From a virus (taxonomy: Duplodnaviria; Heunggongvirae; Uroviricota; Caudoviricetes), in the IMG/VR virus record IMGVR_UViG_2690316224_000003: 5,303 nucleotides of DNA; one strand, written 5' to 3'. The notes beneath the pieces were generated by a model that was not told where the DNA came from, searched no databases, and worked only from the letters and a program-made list of their open reading frames with translations. Position numbers and translations under genes: made by a program. Below, piece by piece: positions 290-5,250 of the stretch. Within the stretch, counting starts at the first letter, position 1. Every line of letters starts with the position of its first letter.

Positions 290-295
290 CTCCTC
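290..295 (-). promoter_or_regulatory. Shine-Dalgarno (GAGGAG) for gene U, overlapping the T stop codon
   Basis: Minus-strand sequence reads TGAGGAGTCATGGCCATGATGATG. The spacing is 8 nt to the ATG at 281 and only 2 nt to the ATG at 287, so 281 is the more likely start. The arrangement suggests translational coupling of T and U. Confidence 0.6.
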
Positions 296-3116
296 AATCT
301 TTATCGTAAAAACTGCCACGCCCGGCACGGGCGCGCCGTTCCATTTCTGCCCTGACCATTTCGCCAATCAGTTTCGCCAGTTCGCGGGGATTCTGTGTAA
401 CAACGTTATGCAGATGAACATGAATTTCACCGCCAAATCCGGAGGCAACAGGCTCCCGGTTACGGGAAGTTGCAGGAACTGATGCCACTGGCGATCGTAT
501 AGCCTCCGCCACCGGGCGGGAGCTGGCCGCAACAACAGGGACCAGCGCCGGAGGCAGCGGAGCCGGAACCACGGGTGTGATAGTAATTGCGGGGGCAGGC
601 TTACTGACCTGCGCAATCTTCCGCTCCTGCCACTCCCCACGAACAGCAAGTGCGCGGGGCAGGTTCTTAAAGACAATATCGCCGGGGCCAATGCGTTTTT
701 TCGTCTCATCAACCAGCTTACCTGTGTTATCAGCAATTTTGCTGAGTCTGCGTAGCGTACCGGTATTGTTGTCTGTGAGCGGTTTGTTGTCTCTGGGTTT
801 ATCGCCTTTTTTGTCGTCGACCTTATCTGACGGGGCCGGGCCGGGAGTCCATGGTTTCTGAACCATTTTCTTGAGAACCGGATCCCATTCCCACATTACA
901 GGAGCCTTTGAAGCGTTCTCTATTTTCTTTCTCGCCCGTTCCGCTTCATCCGGAAGCACTCCGAGCTTTTCAAGTATCCACGCCAGTGAATCCATCAATG
1001 CTTTTGTTGGCGTCAGGACAAGCTCTATCGCTCCACCGAGTACCCTGCCGAATACCTCGCCAGCACTGGTACATTTATCCAGCGTTTCCTTGCTGGACTC
1101 CATCGGTGACAGCAGCGATTTAAACCAGTTAAAGACCTGAATAATCCCATCGCGCACGACATCAAAAACTGGACCGAACCGTTCAAAGGTTTCGCGCAAC
1201 GGAGCCAGCCGTTCCATAATCCCACTGAACACCCCTGCATAAAACGCCTTGATGGGTTCCCAGTATTTCCAGATGAGAACCGCCGCAGCCACAAACGCAG
1301 CAGCAATCAATCCGACCGGGCTGAACAGCGCCCCGATAGCGCCCCCCAGTAACGAAACGGAACCCGTCACCATTCCCCATAGTGCTGGCAGGAGCCTGAC
1401 AGCATTCATTGATCCGGTCAGGAGGGAAAAGCCAAGACGCAGTTTTGCCAGCGGGCCAGCAAGCACACCAATAGCCAACGACAACGAGCCGACCGTTGCA
1501 GTCATCGCCAGCAATGCCCCACCTGCAATCAGTAGCTGGCGCGTCAGTGCCGGATGGGCCTGCGCCAGCGCCGTCACCTTTGATACCACCCGCGTGAGCC
1601 ACTGCGTGACAGAACGCAGCGGACCGTCAATCAGATCTGCAATGCGGATGCGCAACCCTTCCCATGCACTGCCGAGTGATTTCAGATCGCCGTCAAGGTT
1701 GTTGTCCATAACCTTTGCTGTGCGTTCAGCCTCACCGCGCGCGCCTTCAAGTTCTTTTCTCAGTTTGGGTAAGGAGCCGTCACCCGCTGCATCAACGAGC
1801 GCCATAAACGATGTGAAAGCCTCTTCTCCGGCAATGTCCTTAAAGAACGATACCCGGTCAACTTCCCCGTATTTGCGGGTGGCTTTATAAAGGTCGGCCA
1901 GTACATCCTCCATCGGGCGCATTTTGCCGTTCGCGTCAGAGACAGCCACACCCAGCTCTTTCAGCGCCTCTGCTGCCGCCTTTGGCGGTGATGCCAGACG
2001 AGCCAGGCTGGCACGCATTGCCGTCCCGGCATCACTCCCTCTGATGCCCATATTCGCCAGCACGCCCGCCATCGCAGCGGCCTGCTCCAGCGATATTCCC
2101 AGCTTACCCGCCACCGGACCTGCATATTTCATGGTTTCGCCCAGCGCGCGAAGGTCAGTGTTGGTACGGGTAAACGCCGCTGTAAGCGTGTCGCCAACCC
2201 GGTCCATCTGGTCAGCAGAAAGGCCGAACTGCGTCAGGATATTTGAGCCAATATCTGCCGTCTCGCCGAGATCCATACCGCCAGCCGTTGCCATGCTCAG
2301 CACTCCGGGAAGCGCAGCCTGAATGGCCTGCGGTGTGAAGCCTGCCATTGCAAGAAATGCCTGCCCACTGGCGGCATCGCCTGCAGTGAACTGCGTTTCA
2401 GAGCCAAGTTTTAACGCCTGTTCACGCAGCGCCTTAAACTGCGGGCTGTTCTGGTCGATTCGCGTCAGTGCCTGAACGCGGGACATCTCTTTCCCGAACC
2501 CGATCGCAGGCTGCAAAAAACGCCCGGCAGCATAGCTGCCAGCCGCTGCCGCACCAATTGCCAGCGCACCACCTGTTTTCAGTTTTCCCGCGGTTTCCTG
2601 CGCGCGCGAATACCGCTCACGCGCACGTGTTACACGCGCAAGCGCCTGCCGTTCGCGTTCAAGCTGGTTGTTGTACTGTTCGGTGCGTCTGATGGCCTGC
2701 TGGATGGTGTTATCGCTGCCTGTCAGGGAAATGCCGTGGCGTTTCAGCTCTCCGCCAAGCTCCCGCATTTTCTGAATTTCCCGTGTGCGCGATTCATTCA
2801 GGCGTTCAAGCCGGGTGCTTAACTGCTGCATCAGCTTTTGTTGTTTTTCGCTGAGCACTGTACCCGTGCGTTGTAACTGATTAAGGGCGTTAAGCTGGCG
2901 TCGTGCTTTCACGATGCCCGCATCCGCTTTACTGACAGCGTCACGGGCGCGCTCAAATGAACGCGCCTGACGCTCGAGATTTTTGATCGCCCCCTGCGTT
3001 CGCTGGATGGAGTCACCAAACTGCCCCATCAGGCGGCGGGCGTTTTCGGCAGGCCGGGTCAGCCTGTCAACGGCGCTGAAAGCGACCCGGATATCAAGAG
3101 TCTTCATTGTCTGCAT
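294..3116 (-). CDS. T: Phage tail tape measure protein (P2 gpT-like), 940 aa
   Basis: Single long ORF from the track. It has a charged Arg/Glu/Gln/Leu-rich N-terminal ~180 aa (coiled-coil-like), a central region around aa 240-375 (FTAGDAASGQAFLAMAGF...GVLANMGIRGSDAGTAMRASLARL) typical of the tape-measure core, a Gly/Ala/Leu-rich hydrophobic stretch at aa ~527-617 (nt ~1266-1538), and a Pro-rich segment at aa ~838-884 (nt ~465-605). It sits between the chaperone E/E' and U as in P2. The start could instead be the second in-frame ATG at 3107, which has better spacing to a weak GGGA. Confidence 0.9.
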   Translation of the reverse strand: MQTMKTLDIRVAFSAVDRLTRPAENARRLMGQFGDSIQRTQGAIKNLERQARSFERARDAVSKADAGIVKARRQLNALNQLQRTGTVLSEKQQKLMQQLSTRLERLNESRTREIQKMRELGGELKRHGISLTGSDNTIQQAIRRTEQYNNQLERERQALARVTRARERYSRAQETAGKLKTGGALAIGAAAAGSYAAGRFLQPAIGFGKEMSRVQALTRIDQNSPQFKALREQALKLGSETQFTAGDAASGQAFLAMAGFTPQAIQAALPGVLSMATAGGMDLGETADIGSNILTQFGLSADQMDRVGDTLTAAFTRTNTDLRALGETMKYAGPVAGKLGISLEQAAAMAGVLANMGIRGSDAGTAMRASLARLASPPKAAAEALKELGVAVSDANGKMRPMEDVLADLYKATRKYGEVDRVSFFKDIAGEEAFTSFMALVDAAGDGSLPKLRKELEGARGEAERTAKVMDNNLDGDLKSLGSAWEGLRIRIADLIDGPLRSVTQWLTRVVSKVTALAQAHPALTRQLLIAGGALLAMTATVGSLSLAIGVLAGPLAKLRLGFSLLTGSMNAVRLLPALWGMVTGSVSLLGGAIGALFSPVGLIAAAFVAAAVLIWKYWEPIKAFYAGVFSGIMERLAPLRETFERFGPVFDVVRDGIIQVFNWFKSLLSPMESSKETLDKCTSAGEVFGRVLGGAIELVLTPTKALMDSLAWILEKLGVLPDEAERARKKIENASKAPVMWEWDPVLKKMVQKPWTPGPAPSDKVDDKKGDKPRDNKPLTDNNTGTLRRLSKIADNTGKLVDETKKRIGPGDIVFKNLPRALAVRGEWQERKIAQVSKPAPAITITPVVPAPLPPALVPVVAASSRPVAEAIRSPVASVPATSRNREPVASGFGGEIHVHLHNVVTQNPRELAKLIGEMVRAEMERRARAGRGSFYDKD

Positions 3117-3568
3117 TCCCGCTGCGAAGTGCCGCCCGCTCGCGCCAGCTAACCACTTCGCCGGGCGTCATCATGAAGATTTCGAGCGTTCAAGCCGGGT
3201 GCTTAACTGCTGCATCAGCTTTTGTTGTTTTTCGCTGAGCACTGTACCCGTGCGTTGTAACTGATTAAGGGCGTTAAGCTGGCGTCGTGCTTTCAATATG
3301 CCAGCATCCGCTTTACCGACAGCGTCACGGGCGCGCTCAAATGAACGCGCCTGACGCTCGAGATTTTTGATCGCCCCCTGCGTTCGCTGGATGGAGTCAC
3401 CAAACTGCCCCATCAGGCGGCGGGCGTTTTCGGCAGGCCGGGTCAGCCTGTCAACGGCGCTGAAAGCGACCCGGATATCAAGAGTCTTCATTGTCTGCAT
3501 TCCCGCTGCGAAGTGCCGCCCGCTCGCGCCAGCTAACCACTTCGCCGGGCGTCATCATGAAGATTTCG
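2801..3568. repeat. 384-bp direct tandem duplication, copies 2801-3184 and 3185-3568, spanning the T 5' end plus the last 68 bp of E'
   Basis: Base-by-base comparison: 3185-3568 matches 2801-3184 at a constant offset of 384, with 4 substitutions (2912, 2913, 2919, 2933 vs 3296, 3297, 3303, 3317) plus the junction base (2801 g vs 3185 a). The E' tail 3117-3184 is identical to 3501-3568. Confidence 0.9.
3171..3500 (-). pseudogene. Truncated tape-measure N-terminal fragment (T residues 1-105 followed by SKSS and a stop), created by the 384-bp duplication
   Basis: The track ORF 3171..3500 matches T residues 1-105 apart from the S->G and V->L differences, then crosses junction J1 (3184/3185) into E'-tail DNA out of frame and terminates. 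It has the same upstream context as full-length T. Confidence 0.6.
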
Positions 3569-3744
3569 GCGGGCGACCAGTTAAAAATGGCGGCAATATC
3601 CGCCACCAGATCTTCGATGTGCTCAAAGCACACCAGGGTGATTACGCTGCCGTCTCCTGCACGCTCTTCGCGCCAGAGTCTGGCTCGCTCATAAAATTTA
3701 CAGCCACAGCGCACAACTGAATAAAATCGCGTGACGACATTTTT
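3478..3744 (-). pseudogene. Duplicated E' (-1 frame) segment inside the middle repeat copy
   Basis: The track ORF 3478..3714 encodes a 78-aa protein identical to the native E' ORF 4144..4380 despite 3 nucleotide differences, all synonymous. It is preceded by a duplicated A7 slippery run at 3740-3746. Confidence 0.5.
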
Positions 3745-4166
3745 TTAATCATCACTTCATCCAGTCGTGGCGAGGTCACGCGAGGCAACAGCGTGAACAT
3801 GGTATCCGCTTTCAGATTCAGCACATCAGACAGCGACAGACCACGCAGGGATCCCGCCTGCTCAATAGCCCCGGTGATCTCCACATAATGTTGTTTTTCG
3901 CTGAGCACTGTACCCGTGCGTTGTAACTGATTAAGGGCGTTAAGCTGGCGTCGTGCTTTCAATATGCCAGCATCCGCTTTACCGACAGCGTCACGGGCGC
4001 GCTCAAATGAACGCGCCTGACGCTCGAGATTTTTGATCGCCCCCTGCGTTCGCTGGATGGAGTCACCAAACTGCCCCATCAGGCGGCGGGCGTTTTCGGC
4101 AGGCCGGGTCAGCCTGTCAACGGCGCTGAAAGCGACCCGGATGTCAAGAGTCTTCATTGTCTGCAT
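3642..4166 (-). pseudogene. In-frame chimeric ORF: tape-measure N-terminus (aa 1-92), one junction His, then chaperone E residues 44-124
   Basis: The track ORF 3642..4193 reads MQTMKTLDIR...TVLSEKQ then H then YVEITGAIEQ...SVQETAA. The likely start is the ATG at 4166; the track's 4193 is a GTG. Junction J2 lies at ~3888/3889. Whether it is expressed or functional is unknown. Confidence 0.5.
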
Positions 4167-4682
4167 TCCCGCTGCGAAGTGCCGCCCGCTCACGCCAGCT
4201 AACCACTTCGCCGGGCGTCATCATGAAGATTTCGGCGGGCGACCAGTTAAAAATGGCGGCGATATCTGCCACCAGATCTTCGATGTGCTCAAAGCACACC
4301 AGGGTGATTACGCTGCCGTCTCCTGCACGCTCTTCGCGCCAGAGTCTGGCTCGCTCATAAAATTTACAGCCACAGCGCACAACTGAATAAAATCGCGTGA
4401 CGACATTTTTTTAATCATCACTTCATCCAGTCGTGGCGAGGTCACGCGAGGCAACAGCGTGAACATGGTATCCGCTTTCAGATTCAGCACATCAGACAGC
4501 GACAGACCACGCAGGGATCCCGCCTGCTCAATAGCCCCGGTGATCTCCACATATGTGATTTTTTCGCCACCACGCTCAATTGGCCGGGAAAGTTTTACAC
4601 CACGTTCGACAGCCATATCCTCACCTGCCGTCACATCATCCGCTACGGTGTTATTCCGGGTTTCAGTATCGATATCTTTCAT
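4144..4682 (-). CDS. E': Tail assembly chaperone E+E' fusion made by programmed -1 ribosomal frameshift (predicted ~179 aa)
   Basis: Zero-frame codons ATT AAA AAA ATG (4415-4404) lie in a run of 7 A (4406-4412). The -1 frame has a TAA at 4411-4413 and is open from 4410 to the stop at 4144-4146, so a shift in the A-run gives E(1-92) then NVVTRFYSV then the 78-aa track ORF 4144..4380. The 3' end of E' overlaps the T-type start codon at 4164-4166, as in the P2 E/E'/T arrangement. Confidence 0.7.
4308..4682 (-). CDS. E: Tail assembly chaperone E (P2 gpE-like), zero-frame product of 124 aa
   Basis: ORF with a strong Shine-Dalgarno AAGGAG (4690-4695) 7 nt upstream of the ATG at 4680-4682. It lies between tail tube FII and tape measure T, as P2 gene E does, and contains an internal A7 slippery run followed by an open -1 frame. 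Confidence 0.8.
   Translation of the reverse strand: MKDIDTETRNNTVADDVTAGEDMAVERGVKLSRPIERGGEKITYVEITGAIEQAGSLRGLSLSDVLNLKADTMFTLLPRVTSPRLDEVMIKKMSSRDFIQLCAVAVNFMSEPDSGAKSVQETAA
4404..4415 (-). other. Putative -1 programmed frameshift slippery site (A7 run) of E/E'; a duplicate copy lies at 3738-3749
   Basis: Homopolymeric A7 in the mRNA sits exactly where the -1 frame opens. No obvious downstream pseudoknot was assessed. Confidence 0.6.
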
Positions 4683-4737: not shown

Positions 4738-5250
4738 TCAGCCAAGCCCAAGCGCGGAACGAATGCGGTCAGGCACAATGTCCTTGCCGTCCTTCCGGTA
4801 GATGTGGTTCAACAGGTCGATTTCCCACAGCGGGCGATCGTTAACGCTCAGCTTGTAGTAGGTGTTTTTGACAGCGTAAGTGTGTGATGTGGCTTCGCCC
4901 TGTTTGGCCTCCCCCATATCAATTTCCGTCACACGCCCGCGCATCTCGATTTCATACAGATCGCTTTCTGCATCGGTGTAGTATTCACCCGCAAAACGCA
5001 GCAGCGTGCCGTCAATCGTGCCGCCATATTTAAGGAACAGCGCACGAACAGCTCCCCCCATGACAAAACTCGCATCAAGCGCGGAGTCGTCCAGACCGAG
5101 ATCAATACTTACCGCCCCCATCATGCCACCACCACGATAGCTGTCGGTTTTGCGCGTCAGTTTGGGTGGCGTGACGGATGTCACTTTACCCACTTCGTTT
5201 TCACCATCCACAAACAACGTAAAAAAGCGAAGATGTTTTGGTACAGCCAT
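4738..5250 (-). CDS. FII: Major tail tube protein (P2 gpFII-like), 170 aa
   Basis: The track ORF contains PKLTRK..SYRGGGMMGAV..DLGLDD, which matches the contractile-tail tube family as I remember it. A GGAGGTG Shine-Dalgarno lies at 5255-5261. It is immediately upstream of E in P2 order. Confidence 0.88.
   Translation of the reverse strand: MAVPKHLRFFTLFVDGENEVGKVTSVTPPKLTRKTDSYRGGGMMGAVSIDLGLDDSALDASFVMGGAVRALFLKYGGTIDGTLLRFAGEYYTDAESDLYEIEMRGRVTEIDMGEAKQGEATSHTYAVKNTYYKLSVNDRPLWEIDLLNHIYRKDGKDIVPDRIRSALGLG

What the first reader, a model, noticed from the sequence alone, without database searches (positions are those of the whole stretch)
4404..4415. A7 slippery run for the conserved E/E' -1 frameshift, present in two copies
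The zero-frame codons AAA AAA are followed immediately by an open -1 frame that starts right after a -1-frame TAA. This fits the conserved tail-chaperone programmed frameshift of tailed phages, described for P2 E/E' and analogous to lambda G/GT. The duplication gives a second identical cassette at 3738-3749. The A7 run could also support transcriptional slippage.
Basis: partly seen in the sequence, partly recalled or inferred. Interest (0 to 1): 0.4.

Follow-up and report, generated by a model that had tools for sequence, protein, structure and literature searches.

The report
Tail-chaperone frameshift; A7 is probably not its site
The window carries the well-known P2-type E/E' tail-chaperone frameshift cassette of a P88/PhiSM-like E. 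coli prophage (twice, because of an odd private duplication), but the ribosome most likely slips 47 bases downstream of the flagged A7 run, so the finding is ordinary biology with a misplaced site.

Summary
The sequence facts hold. On the minus strand, ATT AAA AAA ATG lies at 4415-4404. The -1 frame is open from the TAA inside the run to a stop at 4144. An identical copy lies at 3738-3749. None of this exceeds chance: Lys-Lys-Met gives A7 by default, and the 16-codon opening has P about 0.48.

The locus is FII–E–E'–T of a Xuanwuvirus (P88/PhiSM-like, P2 family). E and E' are homologous to P2 gpE and E'.

In 16 other P2-family lineages the slippery heptamer sits at one homologous position, '..xF|L', at the end of the E domain. 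It is TTTTTTG in 12 of them, as in P2. The window has A_AAT_TTT there (4365-4359; copy 3699-3693).

A7 is out of register (U_AAA_AAA). It is also present in the sister clade, where the -1 frame closes 4 codons later. The 40 nt between A7 and AAATTTT evolve as zero-frame-only coding. Eleven complete E. coli genomes carry a -1 stop in that stretch. A shift at A7 would delete the last predicted helix of E.

Verdict: the cassette is real and known, and A7 is probably incidental. The two tandem duplications (384 and 666 bp) occur in no other sequence searched and remain unexplained.

The parts
4738..5250 (-). FII-like major tail tube gene (170 aa)
   Evidence: PF04985 Phage_tube, E = 2.1e-45. RefSeq relatives are annotated 'phage major tail tube protein'.
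4308..4682 (-). E-like tail assembly chaperone gene, zero frame (124 aa)
   Evidence: BLASTP to P2 gpE: 35% identity, E = 2e-15. phrog_103 'tail protein', E = 1.7e-36. PF10109 Phage_TAC_7 scores 21.7 bits, below the cutoff of 25. The AlphaFold model is structured over residues 25-111, with the last helix at 95-110.
4404..4415 (-). Flagged ATT AAA AAA ATG (A7 at 4406-4412). Codes I90-K91-K92-M93 of E. Probably an incidental homopolymer, at most a minor slip site.
   Evidence: register is U_AAA_AAA. A7 is also present in 92 of 92 clade-A loci, where the -1 frame closes after 4 codons; no -1-frame constraint downstream.
4359..4365 (-). A_AAT_TTT heptamer (codons GTA AAT TTT, V106-N107-F108), homologous to P2's T_TTT_TTG. 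Most likely the -1 shift site. Predicted product ...AVAVNF|YERARLWREER...
   Evidence: the slip heptamer is at this aligned position in 16 other P2-family lineages; window 'VNFMS' aligns to P2 'VGFLS'. PMC4066793 supplementary table: AAAUUUU shifts 0.07 / 0.36 / 11.4% (no stimulator / IS911 stimulators / IS3 pseudoknot) against 0.12 / 0.25 / 0.77% for UUUUUUG.
4144..4359 (-). E' coding region in the -1 frame (71 codons after the shift, plus stop). Contains the GpE domain and overlaps the T start codon at 4166.
   Evidence: PF06528, 45 bits. phrog_1756, E = 4.8e-42. 48% identity to P2 E'. -1-frame conservation 'LW..ER.GDG' begins right after the heptamer in relatives.
3889..4567 (.). Distal copy of the 666-bp tandem duplication: E codons 44-124, E', and T codons 1-92
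   Evidence: Self-BLAST: 3223-3901 ~ 3889-4567, 98.8% identity. Junction detail.
3223..3901 (.). Proximal copy of the 666-bp duplication, carrying the second cassette
   Evidence: Junction J1 at about 3888-3890. It is absent from E. coli complete genomes, IMG/VR and JGI metagenomes.
3642..4166 (-). In-frame chimeric ORF T(1-92)-His-E(44-124), 174 aa from the ATG. It hosts the second A7 and the second AAATTTT.
   Evidence: fusion ...LSEKQ|HYVEITG.... No gene with this product is on record.
3738..3749 (-). Second copy of ATT AAA AAA ATG (A7 at 3740-3746)
   Evidence: Same register in the chimeric ORF (index 447, frame 0).
3693..3699 (-). Second copy of the A_AAT_TTT heptamer
   Evidence: Read directly (+ strand AAAATTT at 3693-3699). 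It lies 666 bases below 4359-4365.
3478..3693 (-). Second E' copy (-1 frame). Its protein is identical to copy 1.
   Evidence: the ORFs 3478..3714 and 4144..4380 translate identically. The two SNPs between the copies are silent in the E' frame.
2802..3571 (.). 384-bp tandem duplication (2802-3188 ~ 3186-3571): T codons 1-105 plus the last ~70 nt of E'
   Evidence: 98.7% identity. (junction J2 at about 3185). J2 is not contiguous in any complete E. coli genome and is absent from metagenome contigs.
3171..3500 (-). Truncated T' ORF (T 1-105 + SKSS, 109 aa) created by junction J2
   Evidence: Not on record.
294..3116 (-). Intact tape measure gene T (940 aa from the first ATG)
   Evidence: PF10145 PhageMin_Tail, E = 2.3e-58. 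RefSeq annotation 'phage tail tape measure protein'.

Best explanation
The window is the minus-strand FII-E-E'-T tail module of a P88/PhiSM-like (Xuanwuvirus, P2-family) prophage.

Proposed mechanism:
- E (124 aa) is the tail assembly chaperone.
- A minority of ribosomes shift -1 near the end of the folded E domain and continue into E', which carries the GpE domain. This makes a 179-aa E+E', as shown experimentally for P2.
- The shift most likely occurs at A_AAT_TTT (4365-4359; copy at 3699-3693), the position homologous to P2's T_TTT_TTG. tRNA-Phe re-pairs UUU to UUU, giving ...AVAVNF|YERARLW...
- In this lineage a T-to-A change (TTG to ATG) removed the canonical T6G and left the overlapping heptamer intact.

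The flagged A7 simply encodes Lys-Lys-(A)TG. It may leak a little -1 product because the frame happens to be open, but it is not the conserved site.

The second cassette exists only because of a 666-bp tandem duplication. It lies inside a T(1-92)::E(44-124) chimeric ORF.

Shown here: homology, gene order, positional conservation of the site, substitution patterns, and the duplication structure. Inferred: that shifting actually happens, at this site and with useful efficiency.
For: (1) Family membership. tblastn of E+E' hits P2 E and E' in two frames. BLASTP gives E = 2e-15 for E and 7e-17 for E'. PF06528 scores 45 bits. Gene order is tube-E-E'-T.

(2) Position. In 16 other lineages a zero-register heptamer followed by a -1 ORF of at least 53 codons lies at the same aligned '..F|L' position. 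These are P2, 186, P88, SEN5, RE-2010, Menos, Smp131, and phages or prophages of Ralstonia, Zymomonas, Yersinia, three Klebsiella, Edwardsiella, C. youngae and Providencia. The heptamer is TTTTTTG in 12, TTTTTTT in 2, TTTTTTA in 1 and CCCTTTC in 1. The window has AAATTTT there. The same script reproduces P2's published 142-aa E+E' (PMC3091744).

(3) Selection switches frame at that site and not at A7.
- In the 40 nt between the two sites, clade-B variants are 11 synonymous / 3 nonsynonymous in the zero frame. In the -1 frame they are 3 synonymous / 10 nonsynonymous / 1 nonsense.
- Clade A versus clade B consensus differences in the same stretch are 9 S / 2 N in the zero frame, and 1 S / 9 N / 1 stop in the -1 frame.
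- Downstream of the E stop, the -1 frame shows 8 S against 2-4 N.

(4) A7 is ancestral and unusable in the sister clade: 92 of 92 loci have A7 followed by TGA after 4 codons.

(5) The -1 stop allele (CGC to CGT) occurs on the window-type haplotype in 3 of 88 viral contigs and 11 complete genomes, against 513 with the canonical allele.

(6) The AlphaFold model of E has a confident helix at 95-110 (pLDDT 82-87) and is disordered from residue 112. F108 therefore sits at the domain boundary, whereas K91-K92 lie inside helix 87-92. D97, F98, L101, V106 and F108 are invariant in 9 homologues.

(7) A_AAU_UUU is a frameshift-competent heptamer in E. coli. With stimulators it is at least as good as U_UUU_UUG (PMC4066793).

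(8) PhiSM carries the identical window-type haplotype and is a fully functional plaque-forming phage (PMC6456863). The lineage therefore works without T6G.
Against: - No experiment exists for this lineage.
- Without a stimulator, A_AAU_UUU shifts only about 0.07% in reporters, barely above background, against 0.4% for an in-register A7.
- No convincing or conserved downstream RNA structure was found: z = -1.74, with 11 of 200 shuffles as good, and no consensus structure in 6 relatives.
- The -1 frame is open from A7 in 85 of 88 window-type loci, so A7-derived E+E' is physically possible.
- The substitution counts in the 40-nt bridge are small. A linker peptide could tolerate change, so only the nonsense allele is hard evidence, and it may mark a defective prophage lineage (mostly O26:H11).
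Confidence: 0.7

Rival explanations
1. Slip-site migration. After the T6G heptamer was lost, the window's lineage uses the upstream A7 as its main or co-equal route into E'. The route would be ribosomal -1 slippage of tRNA-Lys on AAA AAA A. The resulting E+E' has residues 93-108 replaced by NVVTRFYSVVRCGCKF.
For: - T6G is TTTTATG in all 88 window-type loci.
- The -1 frame from A7 is open in 85 of 88 window-type loci, against 0 of 92 in the sister clade.
- A-runs are intrinsically shifty: AAAAAAA gives 0.405% without a stimulator, well above the 0.07-0.12% of AAAUUUU and UUUUUUG, among the values I looked up.
- tRNA-Lys(UUU) is noted as highly shift-prone.
- The lineage contains a functional phage.
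Against: - The register is U_AAA_AAA. As a tetramer, A_AA.A is the weakest of the six active ones.
- The open/closed contrast between the clades is a single phylogenetic event, and openness has P = 0.48 by chance.
- Zero-frame synonymous variation is not suppressed in the bridge: 11 synonymous variants in 40 nt against 30 in 207 nt upstream.
- A -1 nonsense allele occurs in 11 complete genomes and 3 viral contigs.
- The product would lose the conserved final helix of E.
- There is no structure downstream of A7 (z = +1.37).
Confidence: 0.13
2. Transcriptional slippage. RNA polymerase adds one A at the A7 run. The A8 mRNAs are then translated normally into the same A7-type E+E'.
For: - Sharma et al. 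suggest that AAAAAAA is under-represented in all frames of E. coli genes possibly because of transcriptional slippage or indels.
- Assemblies encoding the A8-type fusion exist in the protein database: P0020 with 15 members, P0021 and P0057.
Against: - Documented bacterial cases use runs of about 9 A/T (PMC5009743); this run has 7.
- No A8 allele was found among 600 matching complete E. coli records, so the database fusions look like homopolymer assembly errors or rare mutants.
- All comparative arguments against a functional A7 route apply here too.
Confidence: 0.04
3. No frameshift. E' is made as a separate small protein (51 aa) from the GTG 10 nt after the E stop, as RefSeq and GenBank annotate it in this phage group.
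For: Records annotate a separate 156-nt 'GpE family phage tail protein' CDS and no slippage.
Against: - No Shine-Dalgarno sequence is close to that GTG; the nearest AGGAG is about 20 nt upstream (read).
- -1-frame amino-acid conservation ('LW..ER.GDG..') starts about 20 codons upstream of the GTG, directly after the heptamer.
- In P2 the homologous E' is made only as a frameshift extension (AF063097 annotation; PMC3091744).
Confidence: 0.05
4. The 'two copies' are not biological. The 384- and 666-bp tandem duplications are an assembly or read chimera, or the module belongs to a decayed prophage. Either way the second cassette has no function.
For: - Neither junction, and none of the three chimeric or truncated ORF products looked up, was found in 5,426 complete E. 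coli genomes, IMG/VR, JGI metagenomes, or the 153-billion-gene index.
- The copies differ at sites that are natural polymorphisms elsewhere: allele a in 36 loci and allele b in 2. They therefore appear to derive from different parental prophage alleles rather than from in-situ duplication.
Against: - The junctions have only 3-8 nt of microhomology plus one extra A each. That pattern is typical of illegitimate recombination and not of k-mer graph misassembly.
- Both periods are multiples of 3, and one junction makes a clean in-frame fusion.
- The differences between copies are substitutions, not homopolymer indels.
Confidence: 0.4

Closest known systems
Bacteriophage P2 gpE / gpE+E' programmed -1 frameshift (FETUD operon; Christie et al. 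2002, cited in PMC3091744; annotated in AF063097)
   Same: - Same gene order, tube-E-E'-T.
- E is 35% and E' 48% identical to the P2 proteins.
- E' lacks a start of its own and overlaps the T start.
- The shift position is at the same aligned residue, the F of '..xF|L'.
   Different: - The heptamer is A_AAT_TTT rather than T_TTT_TTG, because TTG is ATG here.
- E is longer (124 against 91 aa). The zero frame continues 16 codons past the site, against 6 in P2.
- The cassette is duplicated in the window.
Phage P88 and P88-type Xuanwuvirus prophages (clade A)
   Same: - The tail module is about 92% identical in DNA.
- The same A7 encodes K-K-M.
- The same AAATTTT is present at the site.
   Different: - P88 keeps AAATTTTTTG, which contains both heptamers.
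- P88 has a TGA in the -1 frame 4 codons after A7.
Citrobacter rodentium phage PhiSM (OR565851) and Escherichia phages 520873 and P88_4B11 (clade B)
   Same: The haplotype from A7 through TTTTATG is identical. PhiSM is a functional plaque-forming phage (PMC6456863).
   Different: No duplications: these modules span about 4.25 kb against 5.3 kb here.
Lambda gpG / gpGT tail assembly chaperone frameshift (Levin 1993; Xu 2004, 2013, 2014, as summarised in PMC5009743)
   Same: - Same logic: a chaperone between the tail tube and tape-measure genes.
- A low-level -1 shift near the 3' end adds a domain that recruits the tube protein.
- The ratio of the two products matters.
   Different: - No sequence similarity to lambda G/GT.
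- Contractile-tail phage.
- Different heptamer (lambda uses G_GGA_AAG; this is my own knowledge, not checked here).
Klebsiella phage ST16-OXA48phi5.4 (Reipivirus) E/E'
   Same: It is another P2-family member in which the heptamer at the homologous site is not T6G (C_CCT_TTC). The position is conserved while the heptamer varies.
   Different: Different heptamer. E' is not annotated at all in that record.

Membership tests
P2-type E/E+E' tail assembly chaperone pair | Located between the tail tube (FII) gene and the tape measure (T) gene | tested here: met
   PF04985 tube at 5250-4738 and PF10145 tape measure at 3116-294, with E/E' between them. Relatives have the same order.
P2-type E/E+E' tail assembly chaperone pair | Zero-frame protein homologous to gpE (Pfam PF10109 Phage_TAC_7) | tested here: met
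   BLASTP to P2 gpE gives E = 2e-15 over 89 aa. phrog_103 gives E = 1.7e-36. Pfam alone is below threshold, 21.7 against 25 bits. The model's best PDB match is the HK97 tail assembly chaperone 2ob9, but it is not significant (E = 1.1). BFVD hits include 'tape measure chaperone'.
P2-type E/E+E' tail assembly chaperone pair | -1-frame ORF encoding the GpE domain (PF06528), overlapping the 3' end of E and the start of T | tested here: met
   PF06528 scores 45 bits against a cutoff of 23. Overlap with E is 4359-4308. The E' stop at 4146-4144 lies past the T-type ATG at 4166.
P2-type E/E+E' tail assembly chaperone pair | The P2 slippery heptamer T_TTT_TTG in the zero register at the end of E | tested here: not met
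   The window reads AAT TTT ATG (TTTTATG) at the homologous position. An alternative in-register heptamer, A_AAT_TTT, is present there. This lowers the claim 'identical signal to P2', not the claim 'same mechanism'.
P2-type E/E+E' tail assembly chaperone pair | E+E' actually synthesised by a -1 shift (about 10% in P2) and essential | not testable with these tools
   Needs mass spectrometry, a reporter assay, or phage genetics.
Canonical X_XXY_YYZ -1 PRF heptamer (applied to the flagged A7) | Both P- and A-site tRNAs can re-pair in the -1 frame. This requires the zero-frame register X_XXY_YYZ. | tested here: not met
   The run starts at codon position 1, so the heptamer is U_AAA_AAA. Only the A-site Lys-tRNA re-pairs fully.
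Canonical -1 PRF signal with a 3' stimulator | Stable, conserved stem-loop or pseudoknot 5-9 nt downstream | tested here: not met
   After A7, z = +1.37. After AAATTTT, z = -1.74 (11 of 200 shuffles). No consensus structure and no covariation in 6 relatives. P2 relatives are also reported to lack such a structure (PMC3091744).
Programmed transcriptional slippage site | Homopolymer run long enough for RNAP realignment (about 9 A/T in documented bacterial cases) | tested here: not met
   The run is 7 A. The threshold is taken from PMC5009743. Slippage itself was not measured.

The most novel reading that the evidence does not exclude
After losing the family's canonical T6G heptamer, the PhiSM-like lineage (about 600 of 5,426 complete E. 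coli genomes) has moved its tail-chaperone recoding site 16 codons upstream to the A7 run, or split it between two sites. The route would be ribosomal or transcriptional slippage. The resulting E+E' isoform lacks the last helix of E. In this window the duplicated cassette would additionally make a tape-measure-N-terminus::chaperone::E' chimera.
Probability: 0.12. Interest if true: 0.45.

Novelty: new member of a known kind. Interest (0 to 1): 0.2.

Why it matters
The practical value is for annotation.
- In this very common E. coli prophage group, public records annotate E' as a free-standing 51-aa ORF. None of the records inspected annotates a frameshift product.
- The comparative data place the shift at A_AAT_TTT / T_TTT_TTG and give the exact trans-frame peptide to look for.

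It is also a caution for sequence-only scans. A homopolymer with an open -1 frame beside a known recoding cassette can be a decoy. Positional homology and frame-specific substitution patterns tell the two apart.

The loss of the canonical T6G heptamer in a lineage that still makes infectious phage (PhiSM) is a modest natural experiment on how much heptamer identity matters.

The private tandem duplications would matter only if they are real. In that case they would show that illegitimate recombination can build chaperone/tape-measure chimeras.

Tried and rejected
- Looked for the duplication elsewhere. megablast of the whole window and of both junctions against 5,426 complete E. coli genomes and 50,697 phage records gave only the unduplicated ~4.25-kb arrangement. 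Exact junction scans of IMG/VR (J1 only) and JGI metagenomes (J1 and J2) gave 0 hits. Exact-product look-ups of the chimeric and truncated ORFs gave none on record. The source of the window stays unknown.
- RNA stimulators. Nothing significant or conserved was found.
- The genome-contig scan with an E alignment returned only 3 loci. Diversity therefore came from the phage collection instead.
- My first E'-finding script relied on a 'W[ST]P' motif and missed most lineages. I replaced it with a heptamer-plus-ORF test.
- I first read the database 'fused' proteins (P0020 and others) as A6 alleles. They correspond to A8. No A8 allele exists in complete genomes, so I do not count them as evidence of natural hard-wired fusions.
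- The region R3 within-clade variant counts are inflated by a few sequences with indels. I use only the consensus comparison for R3.
- The primary P2 paper, Christie 2002 (PMC135442), is not held in the library. Its content is cited through PMC3091744 and the AF063097 annotation. The ~10% efficiency figure is from my memory of its abstract.
- A sequence search of the PDB found no solved homologue.
Full report
**What is in the window**

All long ORFs lie on the minus strand:
- a tail tube gene at 5250-4738 (PF04985, E = 2e-45);
- a 124-aa ORF at 4682-4308;
- a 940-aa tape measure gene at 3116-294 (PF10145, E = 2e-58).

The whole window matches the tail module of P88-like prophages (Xuanwuvirus, Peduoviridae). 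It matches 1,391 E. coli records and 13 phage records at 90-98% identity. Every match spans only about 4,250 bp, against 5,303 bp here. Self-comparison explains the excess as two tandem duplications: 2802-3188 ~ 3186-3571 (period 384) and 3223-3901 ~ 3889-4567 (period 666).

**Checking the observation**

- The flagged 12 bases read ATT AAA AAA ATG on the minus strand and encode I90-K91-K92-M93 of the 124-aa ORF.
- The -1 frame has TAA across ATT/AAA and then runs open for 87 codons to a stop at 4146-4144.
- The predicted product is ...VMIKK|NVVTRFYS..., 179 aa.
- The second copy at 3738-3749 is identical and in the same register.

So the description is accurate. It is not statistically remarkable:
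- Shuffled windows give 1.24 A7 runs on average, and 64 of 200 give at least two.
- AAA is the majority Lys codon here, 48 of 71.
- Given the zero-frame peptide, the next 16 codons of the -1 frame are stop-free 48% of the time.
- The run is out of the canonical register. It reads U_AAA_AAA, not A_AAA_AAN.

**Is this the P2 E/E' cassette? Yes.**

- The -1 frame carries PF06528 'Phage P2 GpE' at 45 bits against a cutoff of 23.
- The zero-frame ORF hits PF10109 weakly (21.7 bits against a cutoff of 25), but it aligns to P2 gpE with E = 2e-15.
- E' aligns to P2 E' with E = 7e-17.
- tblastn of the fused product finds P2 itself in two frames. There GenBank annotates E, E+E' and the 'site of -1 translational frameshift'.
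- P2 shifts at TTTTTTG and makes a 91-aa E and a 142-aa E+E' (PMC3091744).

**Where is the shift site?**

I reconstructed the cassette in 16 other P2-family lineages. In every one, a zero-register heptamer followed by a long -1 ORF lies at the same aligned position. That position is the F of a '..xF|L' motif ending the conserved E domain. The heptamer is:
- TTTTTTG in 12 lineages;
- TTTTTTT in 2;
- TTTTTTA in 1;
- CCCTTTC in 1.

The procedure reproduces P2's 142-aa product. In the pairwise alignment, P2's 'VGFLS' aligns with window 'VNFMS', while window K91-K92 aligns with an unremarkable 'AA' in P2. At the homologous position the window reads GTA AAT TTT ATG. A T-to-A change has removed T6G, but the overlapping in-register heptamer A_AAT_TTT (4365-4359) remains.

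**Population evidence**

Among 180 distinct IMG/VR contigs there are two clades.

| Clade | Loci | A7 present | -1 frame after A7 | Sequence at the conserved site |
|---|---|---|---|---|
| A (P88 type) | 92 | all | closed by TGA after 4 codons in all 92 | AAATTTTTTG |
| B (window type) | 88 | all | open in 85, closed in 3 by synonymous CGC to CGT | AAATTTTATG |

In clade A, A7 therefore cannot be the site. In complete E. coli genomes the canonical clade-B 75-mer is exact in 513 records and the stop-bearing variant in 11.

Substitution patterns point the same way. Counts are synonymous (S), nonsynonymous (N) and nonsense.

| Region and comparison | Zero frame | -1 frame |
|---|---|---|
| 40 nt between A7 and AAATTTT, clade-B variants | 11 S / 3 N | 3 S / 10 N / 1 nonsense |
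| Same 40 nt, clade A vs B consensus | 9 S / 2 N | 1 S / 9 N / 1 nonsense |
| Downstream of the E stop, clade A vs B consensus | not coding here | 8 S / 2-4 N |

Zero-frame synonymous diversity in the bridge is not reduced, as it would be in a dual-coding stretch. Purifying selection on the -1 frame therefore begins at the conserved site and not at A7.

**Protein-level argument**

- Residues D97, F98, L101, V106 and F108 are invariant in nine homologues.
- An AlphaFold model built from that alignment has mean pLDDT 70, and 80-87 over the core.
- The model places a confident final helix at 95-110 and disorder from residue 112. K91-K92 sit inside helix 87-92.
- A shift at F108 keeps the whole domain, as in all relatives. 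A shift at K92 would replace the last helix with NVVTRFYSVVRCGCKF.

**Is A_AAT_TTT plausible?**

In the systematic E. coli study, R_RR.U_UU.Y motifs are singled out as frameshift-prone because UUY re-pairs cognately (PMC4066793). The supplementary values are as follows.

| Heptamer | No stimulator | IS911 stimulators | IS3 pseudoknot |
|---|---|---|---|
| AAAUUUU | 0.07% | 0.36% | 11.4% |
| UUUUUUG | 0.12% | 0.25% | 0.77% |
| AAAAAAA (in register) | 0.41% | 0.82% | 24.8% |

The window's A7 run is not in register. As a tetramer, A_AA.A is the weakest of the six active ones.

I found no convincing stimulator:
- Downstream of A7 the fold is weaker than shuffles (z = +1.37).
- Downstream of AAATTTT there is a modest hairpin (z = -1.74), which is not conserved among six relatives.
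- P2-like phages are reported to lack such structures (PMC3091744).

The lineage does work without T6G. PhiSM of Citrobacter rodentium has the identical haplotype and is a 'fully functional temperate phage' (PMC6456863).

**Rival explanations**

- *A7 as a migrated or second site.* This cannot be excluded, because the frame is open in the window. I give it about 0.13.
- *Transcriptional slippage.* This is less likely for a 7-nt run; documented bacterial cases use about 9 (PMC5009743). The A8-type fused proteins in the big protein database (P0020 and others) have no counterpart among 600 complete-genome matches.
- *Independent initiation of a 51-aa E', as annotated in RefSeq.* This is unlikely. 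-1-frame conservation starts about 20 codons upstream of that GTG, and no Shine-Dalgarno sequence is nearby.

**The 'two copies'**

The second cassette lies in a chimeric in-frame ORF, T(1-92)-H-E(44-124) (3642-4166). It is followed by a second E', then by a truncated T' (3171-3500, 109 aa), and only then by the intact T.

- Both junctions show a few bases of microhomology plus one extra A.
- Both periods are multiples of three.
- The copies differ at positions that are natural polymorphisms in other prophages. They therefore seem to derive from different alleles, either by recombination between related prophages or from a chimeric assembly.
- Neither junction nor any of the odd ORFs exists in any collection I could search.

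I cannot tell whether the duplication is real.

**Verdict**

This is a known recoding system in a common, under-annotated prophage group. The likely site is A_AAT_TTT at 4365-4359 (and 3699-3693). Interest is low. The remaining open points are the actual site usage in the T6G-less lineage and whether the duplications are real.

Noticed in passing
window 2802-3571 and 3223-4567: Two adjacent tandem duplications with periods of 384 and 666 bp, both multiples of 3. Each junction has 3-8 nt of microhomology plus one extra A. The copies differ at sites that are natural polymorphisms in other prophages. Nothing like this was found in E. coli complete genomes, IMG/VR or JGI metagenomes.
   Followed up: partly
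window 3642-4166 (-) and 3171-3500 (-): The duplications create an in-frame tape-measure(1-92)::chaperone E(44-124) chimeric ORF and a 109-aa truncated tape-measure ORF upstream of the intact T gene. The intact T is no longer preceded by a complete E'. Neither product is on record anywhere.
   Followed up: partly
L001 4594-4749; L083 663-818; L299 584-739; L300-L302 3088-3243: In the RefSeq and GenBank records inspected, this phage group has E' annotated as a separate 51-aa 'GpE family' or 'tail protein' CDS starting at a GTG, with no ribosomal-slippage feature. Some records (PhiSM L298, Klebsiella ST16-OXA48phi5.4 L084) do not annotate E' at all.
   Followed up: yes
L084 528-534 (Klebsiella phage ST16-OXA48phi5.4): At the position homologous to P2's TTTTTTG, this Reipivirus has C_CCT_TTC. 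This is a second natural case of heptamer replacement at a conserved shift position.
   Followed up: partly
E. coli O26:H11 str. 11368 (NC_013361.1 2402614-2402688) and 10 other complete genomes; L017, L020, L022: A synonymous CGC-to-CGT change in E creates a TGA in the -1 frame 4 codons after A7, on the window-type (T6G-less) haplotype. Whether these prophages are inducible was not checked.
   Followed up: partly
proteins P0020, P0021, P0057 (also P0017, P0048, P0059, P0077, P0078): The large protein database holds 'hard-wired' E-E' fusions with junctions at several different positions. The A8-type junction ...MIKKNVVTR... is one of them. One entry is named 'phage tail protein E''. No A8 allele exists in complete E. 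coli genomes, so most are probably indel errors in draft or metagenome assemblies.
   Followed up: partly
PMC6456863 versus OR565851 (L298): The paper describes PhiSM by electron microscopy as a siphovirus with a non-contractile tail. The deposited PhiSM genome is a Xuanwuvirus whose close relatives encode a tail sheath next to this tube gene, which is a P2-like contractile tail module.
   Followed up: no
window 4563-4568 (-), 'GAA AAA ATC': An A6 run in E (codons E40-K41-I42) lies next to duplication junction J1. The parental sequences at J1 share only TTTTTCGC-type microhomology.
   Followed up: no
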